Positions 1,104-30,677 of a stretch of 32,000 nucleotides of DNA are shown piece after piece. Where the stretch lies: contig NC_000916.1 of assembly GCF_000008645.1 (NCBI RefSeq), forward strand, positions 420,001 through 452,000, read 5' to 3'. The stretch's first letter is position 1; the number at the start of each line of letters is the position of its first letter. The DNA is from Methanothermobacter thermautotrophicus str. Delta H. GTDB lineage: Archaea; Methanobacteriota; Methanobacteria; Methanobacteriales; Methanothermobacteraceae. Both the position numbers and the translations under genes were made by a program. The notes beneath the pieces were generated by a model. That model did no database searches and was not told the origin of the DNA. It was given only the letters and a program-made list of their open reading frames with translations.

Positions 1104-1215
1104 GTTATCACCATTCCATATATCTCTCTCCCCAATAATGTATTTTTTCACTGAACATCAGATTCATGGACAAACTGATAAAGATATCCGGAAGATGCAA
1201 CATATGATAATGTTG

Positions 1216-16015: not shown

Positions 16016-16137
16016 TTTCTGAAAAGGATCTGCTGCTTGATATTCATACCAGAATCTGCGAATGGGGAAAAAAGAATTTAAGGAAATTTCCCTGGCGCGA
16101 AAGAAGAGATGACTATGGAATTCTGCTGGCTGAAATA

Positions 16138-16665
16138 ATGCTTCACAGAACACGCGCAGAACAGGTGCTTGAAATTTATGAAAACTTTGTTGAAAAATTT
16201 CCTGATTTTAAATCGGTGTGTGAAGCGGGACAGGAAACAATAGAAAAAGAAATGGAGTCCCTTGGTCTCAGATGGAGAGCCAGAAATCTCCATAAACTCG
16301 CATGTGAGATTGAAAGCAGACACGGGGGGGCTGTTCCAAAAAACAAAAATGATCTCCTTGAACTTCCAGGCATTGGGAACTACATTTCCTCGGCGTTTTT
16401 ATGTTTTTCCAAAAATATTCCAGAACCCCTTCTGGACACGAACACCGTCAGAATCATTGGTAGATTGTTTGATCTTGAGATCAGTGATTCATCCCGCAGA
16501 AAAAAGGATTTTGAAACAGTAATGAGGAAAATTCTTGAATTTGGTGACTGCAGACACCTTTCACTATCGATGATCGATTTCGGAGAGGCTGTGTGCAGAG
16601 CTAGCGATCCCCTCTGCCATGAATGTCCCCTGAAACTATCATGCAACTTTTACAGGAGATGTTAG
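16138..16665 (+). CDS. mig: HhH-GPD superfamily DNA glycosylase with [4Fe-4S] loop (EndoIII/MutY/Mig.Mth-like). Coordinates start at the first canonical start codon; the conserved frame is open from 15994.
   Basis: LLELPGIGNYISSAF is the HhH-GPD hairpin, LLDTNTVRIIGR matches vDtN..R with the catalytic Asp, and CRASDPLCHECPLKLSC is the Cx6Cx2Cx5C cluster. Upstream, in the same frame with no ATG/GTG/TTG, the sequence reads ..LISEKDLLLDIHTRICEWGKKNLRKFPWRERRDDYGILLAEIM-LHRTRAEQV. This is the conserved N-terminal helix region of this family. Confidence 0.85.
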   Translation: MLHRTRAEQVLEIYENFVEKFPDFKSVCEAGQETIEKEMESLGLRWRARNLHKLACEIESRHGGAVPKNKNDLLELPGIGNYISSAFLCFSKNIPEPLLDTNTVRIIGRLFDLEISDSSRRKKDFETVMRKILEFGDCRHLSLSMIDFGEAVCRASDPLCHECPLKLSCNFYRRC

Positions 16666-16666
16666 A

Positions 16667-19600
16667 ATGAGAAAAACAATGATTGAAGAGGTAATAAAGG
16701 AGGTGCTGGGACCACGAAGTGGCCCTGAGGAATCCATTAAAGGGGACCCCTACGATGAGTATATAACCGGTGTTATCATCCCCGCCGGATGGAGTCCCGC
16801 CATAGAAATGGGTGCTGCTGACCCCGATTCTGAAAATGTGAATACAGACATTGTTTCATCAGGAGAGGATGATGATTCTGATTATGAAAGCTCTGTATTA
16901 TCAGGACCATTCACACGGCCCAGATCATTTGGTATTTCATTCATGGCACCCGCCGGTGCAAAGGAAATGGATATCTGTGTCACGTGGGGTCGATACACCA
17001 GATCCGATGATGAGAAAATGTGGAAGAGAAAAGGCCATTTCTGCATCAAAAAATTTTCACTTGAGGAGGATAACACCCGTGAATGCATCTACCGGGAAGA
17101 TGATGGCAGCATAACGATCAATGTTATGATCAGGGAGGACGGAAACCGTAAAAACGTTAGGGTGATTCTTGTAAATGAACTTAAGGTCGCTCGAAGTGCT
17201 TACAGACCTGAAACAGCCTCCTGCATTTTTCAGCCATCCATTCGCATTAACGTTGAAGACCGTCCGGAAACTTCAGATGCCCCTGATGACTACAGAGATG
17301 AGATGAATTTCATTTACAGAAACAGAAAGATTGATGTGATGGGAATTCAATGCTCTGCAGTATCAAAATCATGTGAATACTCACATAACCTCAATGAGTC
17401 TATTTTATGGCCTGATGGTCTTAATCTGGCTGAAAAATTCCCTGAAATTGAAAATTTCAGAACTCCTGACTTCAGAACAGAATTTGTACCTCTCTATCCC
17501 AGTCCGATGCCATCCTTTGATGTGGAAGGGGTTGATGAACTTTCTGCAGAGAAACTTTCAGAGGCATGGAATTCCAGTTCAATTTCAGAGATAGTGAACC
17601 CCCTCATAGATGCATATGAAAGGTGGATAGAATGCAATAAAGGAATCCAGAAGTCAATGGATGGCAAAAATAAAAAATTTGCATCCGGTATAATCAAAAA
17701 ACAGGAAGAAGCGCTGAAAAGACTTAAAAATGGATTGGAAATCCTCATGGATAATGAGAAAGCAAGGCTCGCATTCTGTTTTGCAAACAGGGTCATATCA
17801 CTTCAGCATCAGTGGAGCCGGCAGGGTGATGATTTCCTCTGGAGACCATTCCAGCTCGCATTTTTTCTCATGAACATCGAACCCATATTCAATCCTGAAT
17901 CAGAATATCGTGATGTTCTGGATCTCCTCTGGATACCAACCGGGGGTGGGAAAACAGAGGCCTATCTTGCCATAATAGCATTTACGATGTCTCTTCGCCG
18001 TCTTAAAGGTTCCATCGGCTCAGAAAATATCCAGAGATGCTATGGAACAGCAGTTATATCAAGATACACCCTGCGCCTCCTCACCGTGCAGCAGTTCAGA
18101 AGGACCCTGAGAATGATAACAGCGGCGGAGTATCTGAGAGTTTTCATATGCGACAGCGGTCTCAGGGGATGGAGACCCTCCAACTGTGATATAAAAGAGG
18201 ACTGGTTATATGGTTCTGTGAGGTTCTCCGCTGGCCTATGGGTAGGTGGCGCCGTGTCTCCACTTCATCTGAGAATAAATAAAGGGGCCATTGACATCAT
18301 GACCTCCTCCGGGGATGGTGGGAATGAAAGTGAGCCGGCCCAGGTCATCAGGTGCCCCGCATGCAATTCATGGTTGAGTCTGCCGGATTCTTCAGAGAGC
18401 TCCCTGCCTGCCCATGATAACACAATAATCACCGTGGTCCAGAAAAAGAAGACAGACCTCAGCTTTGAGCCTTCAGAACTCAAAAAAATGTTTCCTGAAA
18501 TCAGAGAAATCAGAACTTGCAGGGACAACCTCAGGGAGAACCATGAAACACTCATCATAAAATTTGATGAAAGAGATATGGACATCCCCCGGATATCAGA
18601 GATCATGAAAGAACTTGAGAATCACTTTGAGTTCTCATCACTGAGCTGGAGAAGACCCGGCTACTTTGGAAGCTCCTTTGATAAAGGGAGGAGGAAAAAG
18701 AAATATTCAGACTTTGAAATATGGTGTCCCAATCCGGACTGTCCTCTGAATAAGGATGTTGACTGGGCGGAGGGTGTTCCCTCAGATGAGGAATCGGAGT
18801 TTCCCGATGGAAATGCCAGAAGAAAGTTTGAGAGTCCTTTTATAGAAAACAGAAGAATTCCTGTTCCTGCCTACACTGTTGATGAACAGGTATACTCAAG
18901 GTGCCCCACAGTTATAATAAGCACTGCTGATAAGATTGCGAGACTCTCCTTTGAGCCAAAGGCAGCAGCCATCTTCGGAAATGTTGATAAATTCAACATA
19001 TTTTATGGTTATCACAGGGATGGGCTATATCCCATAAACACGACAAAGAGTAGTGAAGCCCATGACACTGACGTGGAAGGGTTTCTGCCCCCTGAACTGA
19101 TAATACAGGACGAACTCCACCTCCTTGACGGTCCCCTCGGAAGCATCTTTGGAATCTATGAGGCATCCGTGGAATCTCTCATATGGCGTGGAGGGCTGAG
19201 ACCAAAATATCTTGCATCCACGGCAACGATAAACAACGCACATGATCAGGTCAGACTTCTCTTTGGAAGGGATCTGTTCCAGTTCCCGCCACACGGCCTT
19301 GAAATAGCAGACTCATTTTTTGTTAAGGAAGAGGATCCCGGTGATGCATGGGATGAACGGATTAGCGGAAGAATTTACATGGGAATCGCCGCACCCGGAA
19401 GAGGTCCGATAACTCCCCAGATAAGGCTATGGTCCCGTGTTCTCAAAACATCTGCGGAAAACACAGGCAACGAAGCCATCAGATATTACTGGACCGTTGT
19501 CGGATACTATAATTCCCTGAGGGAACTTGGAGGTGGGATTGCATTTTACAGGGAGGACGTTGTTGAGAGGTTAAAGGAGATTTCCGTGGATGATCCTCGT

Positions 19601-20374
19601 GATATAGATCCCGACCCGCTGGAACTTTCAAGCAGGATTGATTCAACTGCCCTGCCCCTTGTACTTGACAGAATAGAACGCGACGGAGAACAGCCGGGAG
19701 TCCCGGCATATGATGCCATTTTCACAACATCAATGTTCGGTACCGGTGTGGATGTGCCTCACCTTTCACTCATGATTGTCAGCGGTCAGCCAAAGACAAC
19801 AGGATCCTACATTCAGGCCACAGGGAGGATCGGGCGAAGACGGGGAGGTCTTGTCCTGACATTTCTGAATGCTTCAAGACCCCGGGACATGAACCACTAT
19901 GAAATGTTCATGAGGTATCATGCGAGAATTCATGAAAGCGTTGAATCTGTTTCAGTTTCACCCTATTCCGATGGGGCATTAAATAGAGCCCTTGGACCAG
20001 CGACCGTCGCATTTCTCAGAAACATGCCACTGGCCCGTGTTAACTGGACAGAAGAAGATGGTAAGGTCATATTATCCGGAGAATCCTCTGAAGATATTCA
20101 TTATCTGCAGGAATCCCTCACAAACCGGCTTGATAAAATATTTAACAGAAAAGAGGATGTGGAAATAATTGAAAATTTCCTTGAAGAGTGCATCAAAAAA
20201 TGGAGATCTGTTGCGGAAGAAGTCAATGAACTCCGATTTTCAGAGTACATAACCAGACAACACAACGTGGTCCTTGGCACTCCATCGCATGAATATAAAA
20301 ACCTCAAGACAGTTTTCAGAAATGCTCCAAATTCACTGAGGGATATTGAGGAAACAACAGGTTTCAGGGTGTAA
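16667..20374 (+). CDS. drmA: DISARM DrmA-like large SF2 helicase (1235 aa)
   Basis: Helicase motifs are WIPTGGGKTEAYL (motif I, 17936-17959), IIQDELHLL (DExH, 19109-19120), STAT, and FGTGVDVPHLSLMIVSGQPKTTGSYIQATGRIGRR (V/VI). There is a long N-terminal region and split zinc-ribbon-like pairs CPAC (~18350) and CPNPDC (~18725). AGGAGA lies 8 nt upstream, 1 nt separates it from the glycosylase stop, and a DUF1998 gene follows immediately. Confidence 0.8.
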   Translation: MRKTMIEEVIKEVLGPRSGPEESIKGDPYDEYITGVIIPAGWSPAIEMGAADPDSENVNTDIVSSGEDDDSDYESSVLSGPFTRPRSFGISFMAPAGAKEMDICVTWGRYTRSDDEKMWKRKGHFCIKKFSLEEDNTRECIYREDDGSITINVMIREDGNRKNVRVILVNELKVARSAYRPETASCIFQPSIRINVEDRPETSDAPDDYRDEMNFIYRNRKIDVMGIQCSAVSKSCEYSHNLNESILWPDGLNLAEKFPEIENFRTPDFRTEFVPLYPSPMPSFDVEGVDELSAEKLSEAWNSSSISEIVNPLIDAYERWIECNKGIQKSMDGKNKKFASGIIKKQEEALKRLKNGLEILMDNEKARLAFCFANRVISLQHQWSRQGDDFLWRPFQLAFFLMNIEPIFNPESEYRDVLDLLWIPTGGGKTEAYLAIIAFTMSLRRLKGSIGSENIQRCYGTAVISRYTLRLLTVQQFRRTLRMITAAEYLRVFICDSGLRGWRPSNCDIKEDWLYGSVRFSAGLWVGGAVSPLHLRINKGAIDIMTSSGDGGNESEPAQVIRCPACNSWLSLPDSSESSLPAHDNTIITVVQKKKTDLSFEPSELKKMFPEIREIRTCRDNLRENHETLIIKFDERDMDIPRISEIMKELENHFEFSSLSWRRPGYFGSSFDKGRRKKKYSDFEIWCPNPDCPLNKDVDWAEGVPSDEESEFPDGNARRKFESPFIENRRIPVPAYTVDEQVYSRCPTVIISTADKIARLSFEPKAAAIFGNVDKFNIFYGYHRDGLYPINTTKSSEAHDTDVEGFLPPELIIQDELHLLDGPLGSIFGIYEASVESLIWRGGLRPKYLASTATINNAHDQVRLLFGRDLFQFPPHGLEIADSFFVKEEDPGDAWDERISGRIYMGIAAPGRGPITPQIRLWSRVLKTSAENTGNEAIRYYWTVVGYYNSLRELGGGIAFYREDVVERLKEISVDDPRDIDPDPLELSSRIDSTALPLVLDRIERDGEQPGVPAYDAIFTTSMFGTGVDVPHLSLMIVSGQPKTTGSYIQATGRIGRRRGGLVLTFLNASRPRDMNHYEMFMRYHARIHESVESVSVSPYSDGALNRALGPATVAFLRNMPLARVNWTEEDGKVILSGESSEDIHYLQESLTNRLDKIFNRKEDVEIIENFLEECIKKWRSVAEEVNELRFSEYITRQHNVVLGTPSHEYKNLKTVFRNAPNSLRDIEETTGFRV

Positions 20375-20376
20375 AT

Positions 20377-22113
20377 ATGATGAATAACGTGCAGCATCTT
20401 AGAAGATCCCAGTTCATATTCACCTATGGACCTGGAGCCATACTGGAGGGAAAGAACGGGCCCGTGATGATCCCTTCACTCAACGACGGCCTGGGAAACT
20501 ATTTTGGAATAGAATATCTTGAGAAGTTTGAGATTAAGGATAGCAGGCTTTCAGAGTTTCTCCGGAAAAATAAAGAGATTGATGGAACCATACGGCTATT
20601 TTCACTGCCCACCAATGCCGCCCTCTCCCTTGATGAAAACCGTCACATCTACAATACATGGCGGTTTCCCCGCTGGAAAATATGCTATGGAAGAACAGAA
20701 GGGGGACACCAGAATCCCGTCCTTTATTATGAACGTGAAGGGAAAGGCTGCCCCATATGCGGGTCAAGGAATGCCTCAGCCACCCGATTTGTGGCTGCGT
20801 GTCCTGACGGACATCTTGATGATCTGCCATGGAAATATCTCGTTCACAGTAAAGAAACCGGGTGCAATCCAGAATACTTTCACTGGAAAATTGAGGGACC
20901 ATCAATTGCGGATATAATAATTAAATGTCCGGAATGTGGACAATCATCTTCCATGAGATATATTTACAGAAAAAAATTCCGCTGCACAGGCAGACTTCCT
21001 GAAAGATCAGGGCTCCGTTCAAAGGAATCATGTGAACTTGAAATGAAGATTCTTCAGAGACAGTCAACCTCCCTCAGAATACCCGTAACACTGACCCTTC
21101 TGAAAATTCCCTATAAAACCAAACTGGATGAAATACTGGAGAACGATCCAGAATTCAGGGGTAACCTGCGCGGTATTATAAACCATGCAAATAAAGAAAA
21201 TCTGCTTTCAGACGTTAAGCAGAACAAAAGAAAATATTATGACACCGTTAAAGGGAGTATTGAGGACATGGGTTACAGAAGATTCTGTGAACATGTAATG
21301 GGATTCAATAGCAGGATGATAGCAGATCCCCTTGGAGATGAATTCCGGGCCCTCAGAGAAATGCGAACATCTGAAACACTATCAGTGGGAGAGCCTGTGA
21401 AATTTTCTGTTGATTCTCAGATTACCCTCAAAATTGTTCCTGTTGAAAAATTGAAGCTTACAACTGCTCAGATTGGATACTACAGGAGCCCTTATCTTAA
21501 AAAGGACGAAAATTCAGAGATAATTCCGTCAAATATTGTGAGTACAGGTGAAAGGGAAGCAATTTCCGAGTCATGGTGGTATCCTGCGTTTGAGAGTATG
21601 GGAGAGGGTCTGTTCATAACAGCGGATAGAATAGCCCCGGAATCTTCATCCTTAAATGCGCTGCAGGAGTGGGATGAAAGAAAATTGATTCATGACGAAA
21701 TTCTGAGACAGAACACACCTGTGAGTCCAGAATTTGTGTGGTGGCATACACTTTCACATTCCATTATACAGGCCCTCTCGTTATATGCAGGCTATTCATC
21801 ACCCTCAATAAGAGAAAGAATTTACACAGACTCCGGAGGCGCCGGTGGCATTCTCCTTTATTCATCATCGATTGGAGATGATTGCAGTATGGGAGGTCTC
21901 TCTGGATGTGCTTCAGAATCAAAATTTAAGGAGATATGGAAAATAGCAATGAATAATATTGAATTCTGCTCCAACGATCCGATATGTCATCAGAATCGGA
22001 TTTCAGATGGAAATTACAACGGATCCGCATGCCACCGCTGCCTGATGCTATCAGAGACATCATGTGAACACAGGAACAGGTGGCTGGATAGGCATGCTGT
22101 TCTTGGAGATTGA
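20377..22113 (+). CDS. drmB: DISARM DrmB-like DUF1998 protein (578 aa)
   Basis: The N-terminus RRSQFIFTYGPGAILEG is typical of DUF1998 proteins. Internal cysteine pairs are CPICG...CPDGH and CPECG. The C-terminal DUF1998 cluster is CSNDPICHQ...GSACHRCLMLSETSCEHRNRWLDR (21967-22071). It starts 2 nt after the DrmA-like stop. Confidence 0.8.
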   Translation: MMNNVQHLRRSQFIFTYGPGAILEGKNGPVMIPSLNDGLGNYFGIEYLEKFEIKDSRLSEFLRKNKEIDGTIRLFSLPTNAALSLDENRHIYNTWRFPRWKICYGRTEGGHQNPVLYYEREGKGCPICGSRNASATRFVAACPDGHLDDLPWKYLVHSKETGCNPEYFHWKIEGPSIADIIIKCPECGQSSSMRYIYRKKFRCTGRLPERSGLRSKESCELEMKILQRQSTSLRIPVTLTLLKIPYKTKLDEILENDPEFRGNLRGIINHANKENLLSDVKQNKRKYYDTVKGSIEDMGYRRFCEHVMGFNSRMIADPLGDEFRALREMRTSETLSVGEPVKFSVDSQITLKIVPVEKLKLTTAQIGYYRSPYLKKDENSEIIPSNIVSTGEREAISESWWYPAFESMGEGLFITADRIAPESSSLNALQEWDERKLIHDEILRQNTPVSPEFVWWHTLSHSIIQALSLYAGYSSPSIRERIYTDSGGAGGILLYSSSIGDDCSMGGLSGCASESKFKEIWKIAMNNIEFCSNDPICHQNRISDGNYNGSACHRCLMLSETSCEHRNRWLDRHAVLGD

Positions 22114-22146
22114 GGATCTGAACTGATCAGAAATGGTGGTGAATAG

Positions 22147-25062
22147 ATGGAGCCTGCATATTACTATCATGATTATCCCGTGTGTCCAAACTGCAAAGAA
22201 CCTGTGATCACAGGAGCTCCCCTGCTGATTGAGGATGATGGAACATTTAGGTGTTCCTCCTGCGACGCCTTTTTCAGTCCTGCGGTGCATCTTCCGGAAA
22301 ATGAAGGGGTACATGAATTCCTGACGAAAAATCTGAAAGAACCTCCCAGTGAGGAACTGCCCCTTATCTGGCCCATAAAAAATAACGTGATTGAAAAATC
22401 ATATCTCAGCTGGCTTCCCAATATCAGTGAAGGAAAGTACCTGATAACATGGCCATGGAGGAATATCAGGTTCCTCCCAGTTCTAATCTGCGAGTGCCTC
22501 AGGGTTAAAGGAGATGCCAAGATCGTTGTGATCGGTGAGATCAATACCGGTGAAAGTAAAAATGAGCTGGGTTTTCCTGACCCCTTTTCAGCGCTCGGAA
22601 GCCTCCAATACATTGAAGATATGTCTAAGATGGATTCAGGTGATCTCAGAAATCTTAGAAGATTATTAAAAATAGACAGAAAAAATGTATTCAAAAAGAA
22701 AAAAAAGATCCATTACAGAATAAAGGATTCAAAGAACAGACATACGACAGAAATATCAGTATACAGACCAGAAATGACCATTAGAAAATGCATAAACCGC
22801 ATTTTAAAGTACTATAAGAATTTATATGGAATGAATGCTGTAAGGAGTATAACCCAGAAGGATGGGAAGGGTGATAAAAGAATTAAAAAACTGAAGGATG
22901 AAGGAATAATCGCCATAAGCATTGAAGAAAGGGAAGAATGGACGGGCAAAAAACTCAATTTTCCGGTATCTGACCTTTTTCATGTAATACTGAATTATGA
23001 TAACTTAACACGTTTTAAAGATCACTTTAAGTATGATTGCATAACAGATGTCAGGGATACAGATACTTCAGACAGTTCCGTGGTTTTTATCTCACAGACC
23101 CTGGAACCAGAAAAACTCTTTGGCATCGTTGAAGAATGCAACCCAGATATTGTATTTTTCACAGATTCAGATTATTTCGTCAATGAAAGGCTTTTCAACG
23201 GTAGGAGGTGGCAAAAATTCAGAGAATTTCTTCGTTCAACAGAGTGTACTGTTCTGATGTTTTCACTCAGACCCGACAGCAGACACCTGTACAGAGACCT
23301 TCAGGACAGCTTCACATGGCACACCTGGGATTGCATACCCATTCTTGACATACTGACCGGAGATGAAGATCATTCAAGACCATCCCCATTTTCATCATCA
23401 TTCAGTGAAATATCTGTCCCGGGGATTAATGCTGAGATAGAGTACATCCATCTCGAGGAGATTGATAGAATAGAAGAAATCTCCGAAAAGATCCTGAAAA
23501 TAGATAACGGTAAAAATGTGCGCCGTTATCTAAAATATCTTCCTCAGACACCTCTCAAGCTCCGCGGCCCACACAATTATTCAAATGGTGGCTGGGTCAT
23601 TGATAACATTCTGAATCAGATCCTGGATACACCAATCTTTGACGAGGTGAAAAACACATTCGAAGAGGTTTATTCAATTTCATCGGGCCCCCAGAGAAAC
23701 CCCATACTGAACTCCGTGAAAGAAATCATTGAAGCGGAACTTTCAGAGGATGACAGAAAATCTATATTCATAGCTTTAAGATCATCGCGGGAAACAAAGA
23801 GCCTGAAAAAAACTTTTGAAATTGATGAAGAGAATCCTGATGTGCTTGATGCTGTTGATATATGCACCTGGAATGATCTCCCCACCCACCATGGGGAAGG
23901 TCCCTCAGTGGTAATAGCAACTTCATATCCACCCATCGGATACTCTCTGAATGATACAGATATAGATAAATTTTACTTCATAGGAGGATCAACAGCCATT
24001 GAAAAAATAAAATCAGTAGTTAACAACAGAATCACAGAGCAGATTACAAAACCTCTTCACATTCCATCAAGAAAAGAAAGAGCGCCCGAACTTCTCTTTG
24101 AGATTACAGGAAAAATTCATGTTCCTGAAACCGTTAAAGAAGATATCCTAGAGTTTGAAAGATCCATTGAATCAGGATCATATTCAAAGATATCGAATTC
24201 GTATGGGAAAACCTATAAAAAGCGTGCGAGAACAATAAGAGCAGGCACTGAATGTGTGCTTGTGATCAATGAAATGAATTGTGGAATGTTCATACCATCC
24301 CACAGGCTTCTTTTCTTTAAGGATGAAACTGTCGACAGGATCGAACACATCAGAGCCGGTGATAAACCTGAAAATCTTCAGAACAGGACTCTTTTACTGG
24401 ATGAACATGGATTCTATACATCATTCAAAGTCCTTTTCACCAGATTCATGATAGAAATTGCCCCAAACCTGAAAATAAAACGTTCCTACTACACCTGGAA
24501 CGGCTTCAAAGAACTTGTGGATGACTCATATGAATGGTTAAGGAACATCCGAAATGCCATGAAGAAGCTTATGGATGCCCGTGACTGGAATGAAAACAGG
24601 GCAAAGGATTACCTATCAGAATATCTTGTTAAATATGATCTCAACGCCAGAAACCCCGAGTATATAAGAGATCACTGGCTGTCGGATCCAGATATCATAC
24701 TGACGTCGGAGGGTCATGTTCCAGTTTTTGATGTCGAGCACCCCAAGGGAATTTCAGATGTTGAAAAAATATACAGGGCTCTGGATGAACTATTTCCTGA
24801 AATGTGTCTTGATGATGAAAAAGCAAGAAGATCATACATTGCATCACGGACTCTTCAGAAACTGAGAAGAAAATTTTTAACTGATGAAAAGCAATCGCTG
24901 CATCAACGGTACCACAGATTCCATGACGAGCTCTGGAAAGAAATAAATTACGTCCTTAAACGTTCCGATAAATTTAAAATAAAGGATGCCAGAATTGTTA
25001 AGGTCAAGATAGATTCGCCATCCATGAAAATACTTCAAGATTATAAGAGGTATATAACATGA
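22147..25062 (+). CDS. Large uncharacterised protein (971 aa) with N-terminal zinc ribbon; last gene of the DISARM-like operon
   Basis: The intact 971-aa ORF has a GGTGGTGA SD 5 nt upstream and starts 33 nt after the DrmB-like stop. CPNC-x20-CSSC forms a zinc ribbon at residues ~13-40. Two alpha/beta-looking regions follow (KIVVIGEI, VVFISQT, DIVFFTDSDY, TVLMFS; later SIFIALRS, VVIATSYP, FYFIGGS), with no Walker A and no HKD motif. The C-terminus is helical and K/R/E-rich. I recognise no family. Confidence 0.75.
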   Translation: MEPAYYYHDYPVCPNCKEPVITGAPLLIEDDGTFRCSSCDAFFSPAVHLPENEGVHEFLTKNLKEPPSEELPLIWPIKNNVIEKSYLSWLPNISEGKYLITWPWRNIRFLPVLICECLRVKGDAKIVVIGEINTGESKNELGFPDPFSALGSLQYIEDMSKMDSGDLRNLRRLLKIDRKNVFKKKKKIHYRIKDSKNRHTTEISVYRPEMTIRKCINRILKYYKNLYGMNAVRSITQKDGKGDKRIKKLKDEGIIAISIEEREEWTGKKLNFPVSDLFHVILNYDNLTRFKDHFKYDCITDVRDTDTSDSSVVFISQTLEPEKLFGIVEECNPDIVFFTDSDYFVNERLFNGRRWQKFREFLRSTECTVLMFSLRPDSRHLYRDLQDSFTWHTWDCIPILDILTGDEDHSRPSPFSSSFSEISVPGINAEIEYIHLEEIDRIEEISEKILKIDNGKNVRRYLKYLPQTPLKLRGPHNYSNGGWVIDNILNQILDTPIFDEVKNTFEEVYSISSGPQRNPILNSVKEIIEAELSEDDRKSIFIALRSSRETKSLKKTFEIDEENPDVLDAVDICTWNDLPTHHGEGPSVVIATSYPPIGYSLNDTDIDKFYFIGGSTAIEKIKSVVNNRITEQITKPLHIPSRKERAPELLFEITGKIHVPETVKEDILEFERSIESGSYSKISNSYGKTYKKRARTIRAGTECVLVINEMNCGMFIPSHRLLFFKDETVDRIEHIRAGDKPENLQNRTLLLDEHGFYTSFKVLFTRFMIEIAPNLKIKRSYYTWNGFKELVDDSYEWLRNIRNAMKKLMDARDWNENRAKDYLSEYLVKYDLNARNPEYIRDHWLSDPDIILTSEGHVPVFDVEHPKGISDVEKIYRALDELFPEMCLDDEKARRSYIASRTLQKLRRKFLTDEKQSLHQRYHRFHDELWKEINYVLKRSDKFKIKDARIVKVKIDSPSMKILQDYKRYIT

Positions 25063-25072
25063 GAGTACGAAG

Positions 25073-26824
25073 TCACTTCCACCCCTCAATGATCCTCTGT
25101 TTCAGTATGCGGAACTCCTCATCCTCAAGCAACCTTCCATTCTTTACTATATGCCCCCTGAGGGTCCTCAGAATGAATGATACCACAGCATGACCTATCA
25201 TGTCACCCTTAAGACCATATGGGGGCATGGAGAGGAATTTCATCTCATCCACCGGATCAAAGTCGCCCCTTGAAAATTTTTCAACTGTCACATCCACCAT
25301 GGTCTTAACTGGGTGGTAGACATCTGGAAGGAGGTTAAGGTTCTCATCAACTATCCAGTCACCCCCGGGGCCCCTGAGGATGTGGGCGATGAACCATAAT
25401 AATCCACTCCCTGTTTTCTTTTTGAACTCTTCAAGATTCTCAGAGAAGAATATTTCAAAGACCTTCGGGTAATTTCCAGTCTTCCAGAGGTTTCTGTTTC
25501 CACGTATCACAGGGAGGTTCTCAGGGCCAGAGTGGAAGATCCTCCTTGAAAGCTCACTGTTTATCAGCTCGCTGAGACCATAAAGCCTATCCCCCCTCCC
25601 TGATTCACCATTGAGGTACCACTGGAAACCTGATGCCATCAGATCCCCGACCCACGCCGACACCATCCTCCCTGCAGCATCACTGTGCTCAGGGTCATCT
25701 GAACTCAGCGCAAGGGTCATGTGGTCGAGGAGGATCTCATAGTCCTCAGCAGCCATTGAGGCGTCAGGGAATACCATGAGAACGTTATCAGGTCCTTGGA
25801 GGGTCGGGGCGGGCATCCCCTCATGGGTTCTAAGTATGAGGGCCACAAGGATATCTGATCCTCTGCCATGGAAGTCATCAGCTGAGACCTCAGGATTCAG
25901 TGTGGAAGCATACCCTATTCGGAGCTCCCTGAGTGAGGAACCCCTCAGGAACCCCTCAAGGTCATCCCTTCTTTCACCAAAAAGTTTATCAGGTTCATTT
26001 ATTATTAATTCTCCCAGTCTATCCCTGAATTCCAGATCTTCAGAGCCCAAGTGAGGCCTTTCATCGATCTTAACCCTGAATGAGGAGATATAGCTGTCAA
26101 GTATCTCATCCGAGGATGTATCATCAAGATGGATGACACCGTCGTCCAGGGTGATTGATGGGGACTCCTGCAGTTTAACTGCGATTGATTCCATGGTGGT
26201 CCCGAAAAGTCTGAGGGGGCCCCCCGGGCATTCATCACCGTAAAGGTATTCCAGTCCAATCTCCCGGGAACCGATATCCTCTGCAAGCCTGTAGAGGGAG
26301 TAGGCCACCACATGGTGGTCCAGGTCATCCAGATGTATCCTTTTAACCAATGAGCTCCGTCCCCTCTTCCTCATGGATACGATGGCACCCAGACGCGAGT
26401 TATCAAACATGTTGATGAGGGCTGAGACAGGATTTTCCACTGTGGAGTCCTTAATATCACCGAGATCCGGCCTTATGGCCTCCATGATCCCCTTCTTATC
26501 GAGGTACTCATCGAATCCCACATTGTCACAGAAGAGATTAACGATGGGGGATCCATGGTACATGCTGACCCAGAGGATCTGCCATGCTGCCACGGGTTCC
26601 ATGAAGTAGAGGTCCCTGATCCTGCCAAAGAGTGGGGTTACTTTTTCCTTAACAATGAGGCCTGCATCGGCCAGCCAGGACCCGACGGCCTTCACCTGTA
26701 CCGGACCCAGATTGTTCCTTTCATGCCATCTTTCCTCATGGGTGAAGATTAATGGCATCCATTCATCCCTGAGGCCAAAGGTGGAGTACCTGTCAATTCC
26801 ATTTAACTTTCTGGCTCTCATCAT
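25073..26824 (-). CDS. Uncharacterised protein (583 aa), convergent with the DISARM-like operon and divergent from the McrB-like gene
   Basis: The ORF is intact, with no NTPase or nuclease motif recognised by eye. The N-terminal ~200 aa (STFGLRDEWM...LGPVQVKAVGSWLADAGLIV...WQILWVSMYH...) loosely resemble the DUF4007 pattern. That resemblance is unverified. Confidence 0.7.
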   Translation of the reverse strand: MMRARKLNGIDRYSTFGLRDEWMPLIFTHEERWHERNNLGPVQVKAVGSWLADAGLIVKEKVTPLFGRIRDLYFMEPVAAWQILWVSMYHGSPIVNLFCDNVGFDEYLDKKGIMEAIRPDLGDIKDSTVENPVSALINMFDNSRLGAIVSMRKRGRSSLVKRIHLDDLDHHVVAYSLYRLAEDIGSREIGLEYLYGDECPGGPLRLFGTTMESIAVKLQESPSITLDDGVIHLDDTSSDEILDSYISSFRVKIDERPHLGSEDLEFRDRLGELIINEPDKLFGERRDDLEGFLRGSSLRELRIGYASTLNPEVSADDFHGRGSDILVALILRTHEGMPAPTLQGPDNVLMVFPDASMAAEDYEILLDHMTLALSSDDPEHSDAAGRMVSAWVGDLMASGFQWYLNGESGRGDRLYGLSELINSELSRRIFHSGPENLPVIRGNRNLWKTGNYPKVFEIFFSENLEEFKKKTGSGLLWFIAHILRGPGGDWIVDENLNLLPDVYHPVKTMVDVTVEKFSRGDFDPVDEMKFLSMPPYGLKGDMIGHAVVSFILRTLRGHIVKNGRLLEDEEFRILKQRIIEGWK

Positions 26825-26864
26825 AAACTAAATATTGAGATGGGGATAAATAAGGCTGTGGGGT

Positions 26865-28505
26865 GTGAACTTGATCAGATACGTTAATCTCAGAATAATA
26901 TCAGACAGGGATGAGATAGAATCTCAGCAGAAAAGGCTGGAAAATATTCTGAAGGAGAGAGCAGATAAGGTCGTTGAGGGGGGTGCCGGTTTTCAGGGGG
27001 GTGAGGAGAAGGGTAAGGTATACTGGATGTCTGACCTTGGCATATGGTACATGACCCGATTCATAGAGGGGAGCAGGTACTGGAATGGCTTCGGGACAGA
27101 GGAGCCAGAGGAGGGAGGTAACAGGACAATCGTGTGTGAGATAAACTTTCCCCCGGAGGGTATAAACCGTAGGGTTGGGGCTGCTATAGCGCGTGATCCC
27201 ACAGGAAACTACTATGTGGTGCACAGGGGCAAACTAGGTGGGAATTACAGTAAAAGAATATTTGAGGAGAACTACCACGGTGAATGGACAACAGTCATTG
27301 ACGGTGATCGGCAAGAAAAGGTTGTGGTCATAGGAAAAATTGATGAGACAATCCCTGAGAAAATAAGGAACTTTGTATATGAGGTCCAGAGGATAAAGGG
27401 CATGAAAGCCGATTCTAATCTTGAAGAAAATTTTAAGAAAGAAAGTGGGACAGACATTTACCAGCATCTTGACAAAGGAACAGGAACAGACTTTTACCAG
27501 TACCTGCAGATTCATGGTTATCACTTCAGACCGGAACTCGTTGAGAACTTCCTCCTCTCCCTCAAGGTCAAGCCCTTCGTGATACTGACCGGTAACTCGG
27601 GTACAGGTAAGACGAAGCTTGCACAGCTCTACGGCAGTTACATATCCACAGAGAATGACAAAAGGTACCTGGTCGTCCCGGTGGGTGCCAACTGGACCGA
27701 GACGAGGCACATCTTCGGCTACCTCAACATAATGACGGGGGAATACCAGAGCACCCCGGCCCTGGACTTCATCATGAGGGCCTCCAGGGACCCTGACAAC
27801 CCCTACATCCTGATACTCGATGAGATGAACCTATCACACGTTGAACGCTACTTCTCTGACTTCCTCTCAGCCATGGAGAGCGGCGAACCAGTACCACTCC
27901 ATGATGACCCCAACTCTGAGTTCCCATCCATGATAGAGATACCCGAGAACCTCAGGGTCGTGGGAACAGTCAACGTGGATGAGACCACCTACATGTTCTC
28001 ACCGAAGGTCCTTGACCGGGCAAACACCATAGAATTCGAAACCCTCAGGCCAGGGGAGTATCTTAACGGCACCCCCCACGACCAGGGCCCAGCAGGGGAC
28101 ACAGAATTCCTTGAAGACATCATGGAATACAGCAATGATAACATGAAGGACGACCTCCACATGGTATGGGATGAACTTGTGGCTGAACTTGACTTCTTCC
28201 ATGAAACCCTCACAACCCCAGGATTCGACTTCGGCTTCAGGGTGACAGATGAGATCCTCAGATTCATGCATGCAGCCTGGATCTACGAGAAAAGACCCCG
28301 GGAATGGGAAAACTGGGAGCGCTACCTTGACGCCCAGATCAAACAGAAGATCCTCCCCAAGATCCACGGCCCCGAAAGACTCCTCAGGGACACACTCGAT
28401 AAACTCAAAGAACACTGCCAGGGCAGATTCCCTGAATCAGAGAAGAAGCTTGAGGAGATGCAGAACACCCTGAAAACCCAGCGCTACGCCTCCTTCATCA
28501 GGTAG
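26865..28505 (+). CDS. mcrB: McrB-like AAA+ (AAA_5) GTPase subunit of a type IV restriction system, with an unrecognised N-terminal domain
   Basis: Motifs are FVILTGNSGTGKTKLA (Walker A, 27591-27614), YILILDEMNLSHVERYF (Walker B) and VVGTVNVDETTYMFSPKVLDRANTIEF (McrB-signature MNxxD-type segment). The ORF-track start is a GTG. ATG 27027 (MSDLGIWYM) is an alternative start. Confidence 0.85.
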   Translation: MNLIRYVNLRIISDRDEIESQQKRLENILKERADKVVEGGAGFQGGEEKGKVYWMSDLGIWYMTRFIEGSRYWNGFGTEEPEEGGNRTIVCEINFPPEGINRRVGAAIARDPTGNYYVVHRGKLGGNYSKRIFEENYHGEWTTVIDGDRQEKVVVIGKIDETIPEKIRNFVYEVQRIKGMKADSNLEENFKKESGTDIYQHLDKGTGTDFYQYLQIHGYHFRPELVENFLLSLKVKPFVILTGNSGTGKTKLAQLYGSYISTENDKRYLVVPVGANWTETRHIFGYLNIMTGEYQSTPALDFIMRASRDPDNPYILILDEMNLSHVERYFSDFLSAMESGEPVPLHDDPNSEFPSMIEIPENLRVVGTVNVDETTYMFSPKVLDRANTIEFETLRPGEYLNGTPHDQGPAGDTEFLEDIMEYSNDNMKDDLHMVWDELVAELDFFHETLTTPGFDFGFRVTDEILRFMHAAWIYEKRPREWENWERYLDAQIKQKILPKIHGPERLLRDTLDKLKEHCQGRFPESEKKLEEMQNTLKTQRYASFIR

Positions 28506-28514
28506 TGATCACCG

Positions 28515-30218
28515 ATGGACCAGGAGATAATCATAGAATTCAGGGCAGGGAGACTGAGGATAAATGGGGGTCCAGCGCCCATTGAAGTACCTCCCAGGAT
28601 GGTGAGGGTCAGCGGCCACCCCTTAACACTCATAAACGTCCCCCTGGTTGACAGGCCCGGACTTAACCCCATCGAACACTGCCCCTACTACGACAACCTC
28701 AGTGAAATAATGCTCCTGGAGGAGACAGAATACCAGGTCCTCTTCGAAACTGAAGGATCCCTCAAGGATGTGAAGGTCCTCCCCCATGCAGATGAACTCT
28801 TCAGGAGGATACGATTCAAATTCAGGGACAGAGTGGCGGGTATACTCAACTTCAGGAGCTACGCCGGCAAATCCTTCCTCGACATCGAGACACCCGGGGG
28901 CCATGAATCCATACCCATCGAGGTGAGGTCAAAGAAGATAGACTACCATGAACAGTACCCTGCAATGCTGGCAGACCTCTCAGAGGAGATCACATCCATC
29001 ATCCTCGAGGCTGACTCCTCCATATTCCAGACCTTCACCCCCTCAGGTGAGGATGACAGGACACTCTACGAGGACTTTCTTTTACTGGAGTACCTCTTCA
29101 GACCCGAGAACCTCCCGGCTGCAGCTGAACGCATAAATCACAGCTTCTATTCCGGACTTAAACGTGAGGTCCAGGTTGTACCCGCAGGCCTGGCCTCAGT
29201 GGTGGACCCCAACGGACTGGTGGGTGTGCTGTCAGACCCGGCCAGCATGGATGCAGATGGGAACATAAGGAACCTCCCGCAGCTGAACCTGCGGGAGACG
29301 CCTGACACTCCAGAGAACCGCTTCTACAGGTACTTCCTGGAATCACTGGAGGACAGGATACTCTCGCTCCATGAATCAGCCCCCGAGGGTTACATCAGGG
29401 ACTCCCTGGAGGGATTCCTGGATGAGGTGAACCTCCTCCTCTCTGCAGGGTGGCTGATGGATGTTGGTGAACTCCAGGTCCTCCCCCTGAACTCACAGGT
29501 ACTCCAGAAGAGGGAGGGCTACAGGGACGTTCTCAGGTACTTCTTCATCCTTGACCTCGCACTCAGGTTCACCTGGGAGGGGCTTGAGGACAGTATCAGG
29601 GGATTTGAGAGGAGGCTCAGTGAACTCTATGAGTACTGGTGCTACTTCAGGATCCTCAGGATCCTGGAGGACATAACCGGGGATAGAGTTAACCCCCGGG
29701 ACATATTCGTCAGGGATGGCTGGAGGGTCCGTCTGAGGACCGGGAACTCCATACTCAGGTTCAGCATGGATGACACCGAGATAGCCCTCTCCTACAATGG
29801 AAGGTTCGCCGGGGACACCCCCTGCAGGTCCTATTCACTCCCCTTCAAACCTGACTACTCCATACTCGTGGCTGTGGATGAGTGCACCTGCTTCATACAC
29901 CTGGATGCAAAGTACCGGTCCACTGTGAGGCCAGATGACCTCTATGAGAGTATCGACATGAGGGACTCTGAGGAGGAACTTGAGAGGAGGTTCAGGGATG
30001 GTGATGTTTACAAGATGCACAGCTACAAGGATGCCATACTGCGCAGTGTGGGGGCCTACATACTCTACCCCGGGGATGAGGATGTTTTATTCAGTGAGGG
30101 AGGCGGTGAGGTGCCATCGGTTGGTGCATTTCCACTGAGGCCCGGCGAATCCCATGTGGATGAGAGGAGACTGCGTGACTTTATAGAGAGGGCTATTCTG
30201 AATATAATCGAAGGGTAA
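28515..30218 (+). CDS. mcrC: McrC-like / DUF2357-type PD-(D/E)xK nuclease partner of the McrB-like GTPase
   Basis: It starts 9 nt after the McrB-like stop. The C-terminal nuclease core is KPDYSILVAV...CFIHLDAKYR (D...D-x-K) followed by VYKMHSYKDAI...GAYILYPG. This is the pattern seen in McrC/DUF2357 partners. Confidence 0.8.
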   Translation: MDQEIIIEFRAGRLRINGGPAPIEVPPRMVRVSGHPLTLINVPLVDRPGLNPIEHCPYYDNLSEIMLLEETEYQVLFETEGSLKDVKVLPHADELFRRIRFKFRDRVAGILNFRSYAGKSFLDIETPGGHESIPIEVRSKKIDYHEQYPAMLADLSEEITSIILEADSSIFQTFTPSGEDDRTLYEDFLLLEYLFRPENLPAAAERINHSFYSGLKREVQVVPAGLASVVDPNGLVGVLSDPASMDADGNIRNLPQLNLRETPDTPENRFYRYFLESLEDRILSLHESAPEGYIRDSLEGFLDEVNLLLSAGWLMDVGELQVLPLNSQVLQKREGYRDVLRYFFILDLALRFTWEGLEDSIRGFERRLSELYEYWCYFRILRILEDITGDRVNPRDIFVRDGWRVRLRTGNSILRFSMDDTEIALSYNGRFAGDTPCRSYSLPFKPDYSILVAVDECTCFIHLDAKYRSTVRPDDLYESIDMRDSEEELERRFRDGDVYKMHSYKDAILRSVGAYILYPGDEDVLFSEGGGEVPSVGAFPLRPGESHVDERRLRDFIERAILNIIEG

Positions 30219-30306
30219 TAACCTTTTATACATGGAATCCCCCCAGAGAACTCACCGGGAGATCAGGAATTTAGAAGAAAGAATCAGCGCAGAACTTCTC
30301 CACATC

Positions 30307-30313
30307 AAAAAAA
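30307..30313 (-). terminator. Oligo-T (T7) archaeal-type terminator after the roadblock gene
   Basis: The minus strand reads TAAattcTTTTTTTgatg. The T7 run begins 4 nt after stop codon 30318-30320. Confidence 0.45.
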
Positions 30314-30317
30314 GAAT

Positions 30318-30641
30318 TTACCCGAGAAGGTCACTGACCCTCTCGGAGCTCCTCTTCATCTCTATCCTTATCATACCCAGGTTCACATCAACATCCGTTA
30401 TGACAACGAGGATCCCCTCCCCTGCATCTATCATGAGGGTCTTACCACGTTTACCCTCAATCATGACCTGCTCGAGGGGCTCATGTTTTATCTCCTCGGC
30501 TGACCTCTCGGCTGTACCGAAGACCGCTGATGCCATGGCAGCCACGAGTTCAGCGTCAATGTCACCCGGGACTTCACTCTCTATTATGAGACCATCCTTA
30601 CCCACAACAAGTGAGCCGTTAACACCGTTGAATCCTTCCAA
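30318..30641 (-). CDS. Roadblock/LC7 (MglB-like) domain protein
   Basis: The 107-aa protein reads [46 protein letters not shown]...[28 protein letters not shown]. This is a classic roadblock/LC7 pattern. Confidence 0.8.
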
Positions 30642-30677
30642 GGTCCTTCAGTATCCTCCCTATCAACCTGAAACCCC

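What the first reader, a model, noticed from the sequence alone, without database searches (positions are those of the whole stretch)
25073..26824. 583-aa orphan wedged between the DISARM-like operon and McrBC, possibly with a DUF4007-like N-terminus
The gene is convergent with the 971-aa gene (10-bp gap) and divergent from the McrB-like gene (40-bp gap). It is intact in a region where several neighbours are decayed. The N-terminal ~200 aa (STFGLRDEWM..., LGPVQVKAVGSWLADAGLIV, WQILWVSMYH) recall, from memory, the DUF4007 pattern found in DNA-phosphorothioation and BREX-related clusters, including an SspB-like role. I cannot verify this without an HMM search. The C-terminal ~350 aa carry no motif I recognise. 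It may be a third defence component or a specificity/regulatory partner of McrBC.
Basis: inference. Interest (0 to 1): 0.65.

Follow-up and report, generated by a model that had tools for sequence, protein, structure and literature searches.

The report
Headless BREX DNA-reader gene beside McrBC
This intact archaeal gene encodes only the DNA-recognition parts of a type 4 BREX/Ssp phage-defence system, with no enzymatic parts; it is kept by selection next to a McrBC-type restriction operon, and its own role has not been tested.

Summary
The 583-aa ORF at 25073-26824 (-) is real, intact and under purifying selection (dN/dS about 0.25-0.33).

Pfam does not hit this protein. A 55-sequence profile of the N-terminal domain finds only SspB in the PDB, 35 of 55 relatives hit PF13182, and a pLDDT-92.6 model matches only the SspB crystal structures.

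The "motif-less" C-terminal half is the post-ATPase DNA-binding arm of BrxC/PglY: connector, alpha+beta domain and wHTH. It lacks the AAA+ ATPase and the coiled-coil. The protein is therefore a non-catalytic "headless" reader derived from type 4 BREX/Ssp.

Full-length relatives occur only in Methanothermobacter, always at this locus and always divergent from a McrBC-type operon. The DISARM operon is variable cargo, present in 3 of about 10 lineages. In one strain (L039) a complete brxP-brxC-pglZ-brxL operon has replaced the gene, leaving a 73-codon stub. An Aquificota protein with the same layout sits alone.

The gene evolves about twice as fast as McrBC, with conserved ends and a hypervariable centre.

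Most likely it is a DNA-binding sensor, adaptor or regulator for the adjacent restriction operon. That link rests only on synteny within one genus. I class it as a new variant of a known kind, of moderate interest.

The parts
25073..26824 (-). Whole CDS, 583 aa plus stop: the 'headless' BREX-4/Ssp reader protein
   Evidence: ORF list and translation. Orthologues at 45-98% identity. dN/dS 0.25-0.33. AF2 mean pLDDT 92.6, pTM 0.90.
26069..26824 (-). Residues 1-252: divergent DUF4007/SspB-type module made of an HTH and two wHTH units
   Evidence: PADLOC BrxP PDLC02510 positions 520-739, E=3.5e-42. 37% identity to BrxP residues 523-771 of L039. A2 profile finds SspB 6juf/6lb9, E=6e-4. 35/55 relatives hit PF13182. 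Foldseek finds SspB, E=2.6e-5, TM 0.55.
26759..26797 (-). Invariant signature motif IDRYSTFGLRDEW (residues 10-22)
   Evidence: Invariant in all 11 family members. Shared with BrxP C-termini. Aligned to SspB 'RHETFAPRFGWL'.
25076..26068 (-). Residues 253-583: BrxC/PglY post-ATPase arm (bi-helical connector, alpha/beta/alpha domain, C-terminal wHTH), with no AAA+ ATPase and no coiled-coil
   Evidence: PADLOC BrxC PDLC02472 positions 672-859, E=2e-23. Profile hits to BrxC positions about 490-890. 27% identity to L039 BrxC residues 622-849. Secondary structure fits the published BrxC domain map. No Walker motifs.
25211..25225 (-). Conserved PPYGL motif (residues 534-538) in the C-terminal wHTH, shared with BrxC proteins
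   Evidence: Invariant in the family. Present as FLSxPP[YF]G[LVF] in the BrxC fragments.
26825..26870 (.). Divergent intergenic region of 40-46 bp shared with the McrB-like gene. A TATA-like TTATTTAT at 26846-26853 lies 22-29 nt upstream of the target's ATG.
   Evidence: Sequence. An A/T-rich TATA-like element lies at the same distance from the ATG in the seven strains aligned, including strains with a different upstream neighbour. Promoter function is inferred, not shown.
26865..28505 (+). McrB-like AAA_5 GTPase (546 aa); always the first or a downstream gene of the operon divergent from the target
   Evidence: Pfam AAA_5, PADLOC PDC-M26A E=2.6e-48, NCBIfam McrB E=3.8e-7. Synteny.
28515..30218 (+). 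McrC-like nuclease (DUF2357 + PDDEXK_7)
   Evidence: Pfam E=1.9e-67 and 8.8e-44.
14774..25062 (+). DISARM-type cargo (DrmMII, HhH-GPD, DrmA, DrmB, a 971-aa unknown) inserted downstream of the target; not part of the feature
   Evidence: PADLOC. Present only in the window, L011 and L091; absent from L001, L004, L006, L009, L012 and L039.

Best explanation
The gene encodes a non-catalytic protein built entirely from DNA-recognition modules. A SspB/DUF4007-type triple (w)HTH unit (residues about 1-250) is fused to the post-ATPase DNA-binding arm of BrxC/SspC (residues about 255-583). It is, in effect, the 'reader' of a type 4 BREX/Ssp phosphorothioation system with the ATPase, PAPS reductase, PglZ and BrxL removed.

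Shown: the domain identities; the absence of NTPase motifs; purifying selection; fast evolution with a hypervariable centre; a fixed position head-to-head with a McrBC-type operon; and mutual exclusivity with a full BREX-4 operon at this site.

Inferred: it binds DNA without modifying it, and it acts as a sensor, adaptor or transcriptional regulator for the divergently transcribed restriction operon. That operon is McrBC alone here, and TGT/NurA/HerA plus McrBC in some strains. The variable central wHTH and alpha/beta surfaces would contact DNA or invader features, and the conserved termini would provide the framework or a partner interface.

Confidence for each step: architecture about 0.9, DNA binding about 0.7, functional link to the McrBC-side operon about 0.3.
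For: N-terminal domain: BrxP C-terminus E=3.5e-42. SspB is the only PDB sequence hit of the A2 profile. 35/55 relatives hit PF13182. SspB is the only significant Foldseek hit.

C-terminal half: BrxC E=2e-23. Profile hits to BrxC positions about 490-890. [quoted passage not shown]

Natural DUF4007-BrxC fusion: P0015 lies in a BREX-4 operon. This supports the two modules working together.

Selection: dN/dS is 0.25-0.33 in both halves. The gene is intact in more than 10 lineages. It is 52% identical between the window and L011, against 71-74% for McrB/McrC and 89% for HMD. Residues 1-100 and 400-560 are conserved and residues 100-400 are hypervariable. There is a recombination mosaic with L006.

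Synteny: it is always divergent from an operon containing McrBC. In L001 and L004, HerA ends 3 nt from McrB, so the target still faces a single operon. A TATA-like element is conserved upstream.
Against: There are no experimental data. The McrBC adjacency is seen in one genus with conserved synteny, so the roughly 10 contexts are not independent.

The Aquificota protein with the same layout (P0014) lies between an enolase-like gene and a creatininase gene, with no McrBC or BREX genes nearby.

McrB has its own N-terminal reader-type domains (MrcB_N, DUF1802 or a repeated genus-specific domain), so it does not obviously need an external reader.

McrB is split in several strains where the target is intact (L006, L012, L091).

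The gene is dispensable: it was replaced in L039 and is frameshifted in L034.

At 583 aa, and with no recognisable ligand-sensing domain, it is unusually large for a simple repressor.
Confidence: 0.45

Rival explanations
1. It is an autonomous DNA-binding protein whose function has nothing to do with its neighbours. Examples would be a stand-alone invader-DNA sensor or decoy, a nucleoid-associated factor, or a partner of unlinked genes. On this view it merely marks one edge of a defence-island insertion hotspot.
For: The Aquificota homologue with the same layout is solitary. Cargo on both sides of the gene changes between strains: DISARM, an AriA/GajA-like gene, DUF2085, the TGT/HerA operon and BREX-4. 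It appears to carry its own TATA-like element whatever the upstream gene is.
Against: No enzymatic or effector domain is present, so a lone defence role is hard to picture. The head-to-head arrangement with the McrBC-containing operon is kept in every lineage, even after a 10-kb insertion.
Confidence: 0.22
2. It is a functionless relic of a decayed brxP-brxC operon. The end of brxP and the middle of brxC happen to be joined in frame, and the gene is drifting toward loss.
For: The domain order is collinear with the brxP-brxC gene order. A full BREX-4 operon occupies the same site and orientation in L039. This is the fastest-evolving gene in the neighbourhood. It has been lost in L039 and is frameshifted in L034.
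Against: The reading frame of about 580 codons is intact across lineages that are only 45-50% identical, with dS saturated. dN/dS is 0.25-0.33 in both halves at unsaturated distances. There are 200 or more invariant columns. The predicted fold is compact and confident (pTM 0.90). Identity to L039 BrxP and BrxC is only 37% and 27%, so it is not a recent deletion product.
Confidence: 0.1
3. It is a working SspB-like nickase that takes part in phosphorothioate modification together with PAPS reductase, ATPase and cysteine desulfurase genes encoded elsewhere in the genome.
For: It is homologous in sequence and fold to SspB, which is reported to nick DNA during PT installation. The invariant acidic and basic N-terminal motif IDRYSTFGLRDEW could form part of an active site.
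Against: The 32-kb window contains no PAPS reductase, BrxC/SspC ATPase, PglZ or BrxL. Where a full BREX-4 system is present (L039), the gene has been destroyed, and BrxP there carries its own DUF4007. Comparative analyses treat DUF4007 as a DNA-binding triple-wHTH recognition unit rather than a nuclease fold. The rest of the genome could not be searched.
Confidence: 0.07
4. It is a third component of the DISARM-like operon with which it converges.
For: There is a 10-bp convergent gap to the 971-aa gene in the window. The same arrangement, with overlapping 3' ends, occurs in L011 and L091.
Against: DISARM is absent from most lineages that keep the gene (L001, L004, L006, L009, L012, L033). The gene is on the opposite strand. 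Known DISARM classes include no DUF4007 or BrxC component (PADLOC models).
Confidence: 0.03

Closest known systems
SspB / DUF4007 (PF13182), the DNA-recognition and reported nickase subunit of SspABCD; also the C-terminal domain of BrxP in type 4 BREX
   Same: Residues 1-250 share the signature N-terminal motif, two collinear profile matches to SspB, and a fold matched only by SspB structures. Identity to BrxP C-termini is 30-39%.
   Different: It falls below Pfam's threshold (no hit at all for this protein). It is not encoded with SspC/SspD or with BrxC/PglZ/BrxL. It is fused to a BrxC fragment rather than standing alone or being fused to a PAPS reductase. Nickase residues could not be checked.
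BrxC/PglY (SspC-like ORC/Cdc6 AAA+ ATPase of BREX; DUF499/DUF6079)
   Same: Residues about 255-583 are homologous to BrxC's connector, alpha+beta domain and wHTH region (model positions about 490-890), including the NRNxW, EIFxF, HP and FLSxPPYGL motifs.
   Different: It lacks the defining N-terminal AAA+ ATPase (no Walker A/B) and the C-terminal coiled-coil of 250-500 residues. It therefore cannot be the oligomeric ATP-driven scaffold that BrxC is thought to be.
DUF4007-BrxC fusion proteins of type 4 BREX (for example P0015, 1399 aa, in L028)
   Same: The same two modules occur in the same order in one polypeptide.
   Different: P0015 keeps the whole BrxC (ATPase and coiled-coil) and sits in an operon with a gene in the PglZ position and BrxL. 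The target is the 'headless, tailless' version and has no such operon.
P0014 family (Aquificota, 694 aa)
   Same: The same ATPase-less layout: DUF4007 plus BrxC positions 527-900. It is found as a 692-694-aa protein in five assemblies.
   Different: It is only about 27% identical and much closer to canonical BrxC (E=2e-148). It sits alone between housekeeping-type genes, not beside McrBC. Whether it shares the truncation event with the target or arose independently is unresolved.
BrxA / DndG / FokI-type triple-(w)HTH recognition modules, and the 'rapidly evolving 2-4 wHTH protein' of the HerA/FtsK-ORC/Cdc6 capture systems (NAR 2024; BRC systems, NAR 2026)
   Same: It is a fast-evolving, non-catalytic multi-wHTH protein encoded next to NTPase-nuclease defence operons. 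In L001 and L004 the divergent operon contains a TGT-like gene, a large AAA_22 ATPase, NurA and HerA.
   Different: The described BRC system needs PglZ, DUF6079 and a STAND NTPase, which are absent here. The target persists in strains that lack the HerA operon altogether.

Membership tests
DUF4007 (Pfam PF13182) / SspB | Match to the PF13182 HMM at or above the gathering score (27 bits) | tested here: not met
   There is no hit for the window protein or for its N-terminal 249-255 aa, even at E<=10. Orthologues P0007, P0008 and P0009 reach 25.6, 21.4 and 15.2 bits.
DUF4007 (Pfam PF13182) / SspB | Profile-level homology to proven DUF4007 proteins | tested here: met
   The A2 profile (55 sequences) finds only SspB (6juf/6lb9, 'DUF4007 domain-containing protein'), E=6e-4, in two collinear stretches. 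35 of 55 relatives hit PF13182, best E=1.7e-11.
DUF4007 (Pfam PF13182) / SspB | SspB-like fold made of three (w)HTH units | tested here: met
   For model m7b03ad29dee4 (pLDDT 92.6), Foldseek returns 6juf_A, 6juf_B and 6lb9_A as the only hits with E<1e-3. Probability is 1.0, about 310 columns align, and TM is 0.55 normalised to SspB.
DUF4007 (Pfam PF13182) / SspB | Mg-dependent nicking activity, catalytic residues and dimer-interface residues of SspB | not testable with these tools
   The primary SspB paper is not held. Secondary sources give no residue numbers.
SspABCD / type 4 BREX system (brxP-brxC-pglZ-brxL) | Co-encoded PAPS reductase, BrxC/SspC ATPase, PglZ and BrxL | tested here: not met
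   None of these is in the 32-kb window. The full set is present in L039, where it replaces this gene. The rest of the genome could not be searched.
BrxC/PglY | N-terminal ORC/Cdc6-type AAA+ ATPase with Walker A/B motifs | tested here: not met
   There are no Walker A or B motifs. All matches to BrxC models begin at model position about 490 or later.
BrxC/PglY | Post-ATPase connector, alpha+beta domain and wHTH | tested here: met
   PDLC02472 E=2e-23. Target residues 219-584 match P0048 residues 487-879 and similar regions of other BrxC proteins. The secondary-structure order matches the published description.
BrxC/PglY | C-terminal coiled-coil of 250-500 residues | tested here: not met
   The protein ends at the equivalent of BrxC position about 880-900 of 1115-1183.
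McrBC accessory subunit (hypothetical) | Association with McrBC-type pairs beyond a single syntenic lineage | tested here: inconclusive
   It is adjacent in every Methanothermobacter context. The only out-of-genus relative with this layout has no McrBC within its 3-4 kb contigs. McrB's N-terminal region is itself specific to the genus.
DISARM | Consistent co-occurrence with drmA and drmB | tested here: not met
   DISARM flanks the gene only in the window, L011 and L091, and is absent from at least six other lineages that keep the gene.

The most novel reading that the evidence does not exclude
A BREX-4/Ssp DNA-reader module, stripped of its modification and ATPase machinery, has been co-opted in Methanothermobacter as the targeting or licensing subunit of a McrBC-type GTPase-nuclease. 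In some strains this extends to a TGT/NurA/HerA-McrBC super-operon. The result would be a hybrid 'BREX reader plus Type IV effector' defence system that has not been described before. Its hypervariable central surfaces would set what is recognised.
Probability: 0.18. Interest if true: 0.75.

Novelty: new variant of a known kind. Interest (0 to 1): 0.45.

Why it matters
How DUF4007/SspB and the non-ATPase part of BrxC recognise DNA is an open question for BREX and Ssp systems. Here nature has produced both modules in one 583-aa polypeptide, without the ATPase, the modification enzymes or the effectors. That supports the idea that the two modules act as one recognition unit, and it offers a small, thermostable and confidently modelled protein for biochemical and structural work on that unit.

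The locus also shows alternative alleles at one archaeal defence hotspot: the mini reader gene in most strains, and a complete type 4 BREX operon in another. This is a clear natural example of cassette replacement.

If the protein does feed into McrBC, it would be a new way of giving a Type IV restriction enzyme its specificity.

Tried and rejected
1. Direct family scans of the protein (Pfam, NCBIfam) and a phmmer search against PDB sequences gave nothing. Only PADLOC and the profile and structure routes worked.

2. The first AF2 model, from 11 close orthologues, was mediocre (pLDDT 69) and gave only a marginal SspB hit. It was superseded by the model from the 53-sequence alignment.

3. I tested whether the 10-kb operon of L001 and L004 holds the 'missing' BrxC. 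It has no BrxC or SspC hits. It has only a faint BrxC_BrxD hit (E=0.015) and one marginal wHTH similarity: target residues 492-568 against ATPase residues 811-883, E=0.019. I rejected it as an obligatory partner because most strains lack it.

4. A loose PD-(D/E)xK regex match at residues 500-529 falls on residues that vary among orthologues, so I rejected it as a nuclease motif.

5. The mobile-element or viral origin checks were negative. BFVD has no structural relatives. The phage and plasmid collections hold only matches to BrxP-type N-domains.

6. I searched for relatives of McrB's N-terminal region of about 180 aa, hoping for out-of-genus contexts. All hits were from Methanothermobacter, so the search was uninformative.

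7. Cluster look-ups of the nearest BrxP and BrxC relatives gave no taxonomy.

8. A literature search for MTH499-504 locus tags found nothing. The primary SspB structure paper is not held.

9. The sigma-70 promoter scanner was not used because it does not apply to archaea.
Full report
OBSERVATION

It converges on the 971-aa gene with a 10-bp gap. It diverges from the McrB-like ORF with a 40-bp gap; alignment with orthologues suggests the real McrB start is the TTG at 26871, which makes the gap 46 bp.

PADLOC and Pfam confirm the flanks. On one side are DrmMII, an HhH-GPD gene, DrmA, DrmB and an unassigned 971-aa gene. On the other are an AAA_5 McrB-like gene, a DUF2357+PDDEXK_7 McrC-like gene and then an Hmd paralogue, which marks the organism as a methanogen.

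The protein shares a 90% cluster with AAB85006.1 of Methanothermobacter thermautotrophicus Delta H, which UniRef already labels 'DUF4007 family protein'. It is therefore not an orphan in the strict sense.

WHAT THE PROTEIN IS

Direct scans against Pfam, NCBIfam and PDB sequences find nothing. PADLOC splits the protein into two parts. Residues 5-219 match the C-terminal part of BrxP (E=3.5e-42). Residues 383-564 match an internal part of BrxC/PglY (E=2e-23).

An exhaustive profile search over 1.84 billion representative proteins gives the same picture, with 439 hits. Residues 1 to about 250 match standalone proteins of about 255 aa and the C-termini of BrxP proteins of about 780 aa. Residues from about 220-260 to 584 match positions about 490-890 of BrxC proteins of 1100-1400 aa.

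The N-terminal domain is a divergent DUF4007. Three orthologues score just below Pfam's cut-off. 35 of 55 domain relatives hit PF13182. A profile of those 55 sequences finds only SspB in the PDB, E=6e-4, in two collinear stretches that include the RYSTFGLRxEW / RHETFAPRFGW motif.

A first structural model from 11 orthologues was mediocre (pLDDT 69). A 53-sequence two-domain alignment raised this to pLDDT 92.6 and pTM 0.90. For that model the only significant PDB matches are the three SspB chains (E=2.6e-5 to 1.1e-4, probability 1.0, about 310 aligned columns, TM 0.55). All other matches are weak and to generic wHTH regulators. There are no viral relatives.

The second half has two connector helices, an alpha/beta core with two long helices, a beta-hairpin, further helices and a terminal wHTH. 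This is the order published for the post-ATPase region of BrxC. That paper describes the alpha+beta domain as a fold without known relatives and proposes that the region binds DNA.

There are no Walker A/B, HNH or CxxC motifs. The single loose PD-(D/E)xK match lies on non-conserved residues.

The protein is therefore a 'headless and tailless' BrxC arm fused to a DUF4007/SspB module. It consists only of recognition modules and has no enzyme domain.

RELATED LAYOUTS

P0015 (1399 aa) is a natural fusion of DUF4007 to a complete BrxC. It lies in an operon followed by a gene in the PglZ position and then BrxL. The two modules are therefore joined in genuine type 4 BREX systems.

P0014 (694 aa, Aquificota, seen in five assemblies) has the same ATPase-less layout as the target. 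It sits alone between an enolase-like gene and a creatininase gene.

[quoted passage not shown] It does not describe this truncated fusion, and it reports no link to McrBC.

GENOMIC CONTEXT

Full-length relatives were found only in Methanothermobacter. They are always at the same chromosomal site: Hmd, Roadblock, McrC, McrB, then the target transcribed divergently, then variable cargo, then SNase, DJ-1 and a DEAD/MZB helicase.

The cargo downstream of the target varies. It is DISARM in the window, L011 and KEPCO 2 (L091). It is an AriA/GajA-like ATPase in L006, DUF2085 in L009, and nothing in L001. DISARM is therefore unrelated cargo.

In L001, L004 and L032, an operon of about 10 kb lies between the target and McrB. 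It encodes a 254-aa protein, DUF5591, a TGT-like protein, a 262-aa protein, an 1111-aa AAA_22 ATPase, a 177-aa protein, NurA and HerA. HerA ends 3 nt from McrB, so the target still faces one long operon that ends in McrBC.

An A/T-rich TATA-like element lies 22-29 nt upstream of the target's ATG in all seven strains aligned, whatever the upstream gene is. That it acts as a promoter is an inference.

THE KEY LOCUS

L039 and L038 have an orthologous backbone: Hmd 94.5% identical, McrC 84%, and SNase 98% immediately after BrxL. In the target's place, and in the same orientation, they carry a complete brxP-brxC-pglZ-brxL operon (PADLOC E-values from 1e-171 to 0).

Between McrB and brxP lies a 73-codon stub of the target (MESSKKGIDRYSTFGLRDEW...RELYFL*, 85% identical). 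Homology ends abruptly after it. In that lineage a BREX-4 cassette replaced the gene from about codon 74 through to SNase.

The target's two halves align collinearly to the end of that BrxP (37% identity) and the middle of that BrxC (27% identity). The order is what a brxP-brxC origin would predict. The divergence is too great for a recent deletion at this site.

A Methanosphaera megaplasmid carries a similar BrxP, which would be a plausible vehicle for spreading BREX-4.

SELECTION

At unsaturated distances (dS 0.23-0.44), dN/dS is 0.25-0.33 in both halves. The frame is intact across lineages that are only 45-50% identical.

It is the fastest-evolving gene in the neighbourhood. Between the window and L011 it is 52% identical, against 74% for McrB, 71% for McrC and 89% for Hmd.

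Residues 1-100 and 400-560 are conserved. Residues 100-400 are hypervariable; they cover wHTH2, wHTH3, the connector and the first part of the alpha/beta core.

Against L006 there is a recombination mosaic. The target's 5' end, the intergenic region and the 5' end of McrB are 99-100% identical. The McrB core and McrC are about 100% identical. The body of the target is only 69-91% identical.

The gene is dispensable. It has been replaced in L039 and is frameshifted in L034, although the latter could be an assembly error.

HOW IT MOST LIKELY WORKS

What is shown is a selectively maintained, non-catalytic fusion of two DNA-recognition modules from type 4 BREX/Ssp, fixed head-to-head with a McrBC-type operon.

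What is inferred is that it binds DNA and serves the adjacent restriction operon as a sensor, adaptor or regulator. The variable centre would be the recognition surface and the conserved ends the framework or partner interface. I give this 0.45 overall: architecture about 0.9, DNA binding about 0.7, link to McrBC about 0.3.

Several points count against the McrBC link. All contexts come from one genus. The Aquificota analogue is solitary. McrB carries its own reader-type N-terminal domains. McrB is split in strains where the target is intact.

The rivals are:
- an autonomous DNA-binding role (0.22);
- a functionless relic (0.10), contradicted by the selection data;
- an SspB-like nickase working with unlinked PT genes (0.07), for which no partners are visible and which is hard to square with the gene's destruction where BREX-4 is present;
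- a DISARM component (0.03), contradicted by synteny.

COMPARISON WITH KNOWN SYSTEMS, AND VERDICT

The protein works most like the recognition subunits of BREX, Ssp and Dnd systems (BrxA, SspB, DndG, and the BrxC arm).

As for membership: it is a divergent DUF4007 by profile and by fold, though not by Pfam's threshold. It is not a BrxC, because it has no ATPase and no coiled-coil. It is not part of a BREX-4, Ssp or DISARM system in this genome window.

I class it as a new variant of a known kind: a previously undescribed domain layout and genomic association built from known modules. Interest is moderate (0.45).

The most novel reading still open is a hybrid 'BREX reader plus McrBC effector' system. 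I give that a probability of about 0.18 and an interest of about 0.75 if true.

Noticed in passing
window 26865-28505; L006 7751-9960; L011 7813-9951; L091 9965-12591: The McrB-like gene has a modular, unstable N-terminus. Strains with the DISARM C5-methyltransferase (window, L011, L091) lack the 5mC-reading MrcB_N domain. Instead they have one to three copies of a genus-specific domain of about 180 aa, which hits DUF1802 in L011. Strains without DISARM (L001, L004, L006, L009) carry MrcB_N. This may be a way of avoiding self-restriction of 5mC DNA. A 650-bp indel separates the window from L006 at 27397-27477.
   Followed up: partly
L039 8049-17915 (also L038): A complete type 4 BREX operon (brxP, brxC, pglZ, brxL) sits in a Methanothermobacter backbone. 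It replaces the target from about codon 74 up to the SNase gene and leaves a 73-codon stub. McrB is split (308 + 279 aa) in the same strain.
   Followed up: yes
L001 87-9890; L004 60-9824; L032 73-9875: An eight-gene operon (254-aa protein, DUF5591, TGT-like, 262-aa protein, 1111-aa AAA_22 ATPase, 177-aa protein, NurA, HerA) lies immediately upstream of McrBC, 3 nt from it, and is apparently co-transcribed with it. It resembles the HerA-anchored 'capture' and BRC systems with a possible 7-deazaguanine module, but it has NurA and no PglZ. In L032 the ATPase is split.
   Followed up: partly
window 22147-25062 (+): A 971-aa gene follows DrmB. It has no Pfam, NCBIfam or PADLOC hit apart from a faint N-terminal zinc ribbon. 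It is conserved after DrmAB in L011 (67% identity) and in L091. It may be an undescribed DISARM component standing in for DrmC, DrmD or DrmE.
   Followed up: no
window 16138-16665 (+): An HhH-GPD glycosylase-type gene lies between the C5 methyltransferase and DrmA. PADLOC matches it to a 'Type II nicking endonuclease' model (E=1.7e-27). It is likely a Mig/Vsr-like T:G mismatch repair function that offsets 5mC deamination.
   Followed up: no
window 5085-9189 (-): The DUF4011/AAA_11/AAA_12/MTES_1575 helicase-nuclease is about 1591-1601 aa in other strains. Here it is split into ORFs of 204 aa and 1157 aa, so it is probably a pseudogene.
   Followed up: partly
window 30232-31047 (+) and 30318-30641 (-): The 271-aa plus-strand ORF overlaps the 3' end of the Hmd paralogue and is probably spurious. 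Other strains annotate a 115-aa Roadblock/LC7 gene on the opposite strand at this position.
   Followed up: partly
window 1102-2409 (+): This 435-aa ORF has only the N-terminal and actuator (E1-E2_ATPase) domains of a P-type ATPase. It looks truncated.
   Followed up: no
L034 10001-11733: The target orthologue of the L009 lineage has a frameshift after about residue 95, on a 532-kb metagenomic contig. This is either a real pseudogene or an assembly error.
   Followed up: no
plasmid NZ_CP118754 (Methanosphaera sp. ISO3-F5), about 96.7 kb: A 174-kb Methanosphaera plasmid encodes a BrxP whose DUF4007 domain is 37% identical to the target's N-terminal domain. Type 4 BREX is therefore carried on plasmids in Methanobacteriales.
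   Followed up: no
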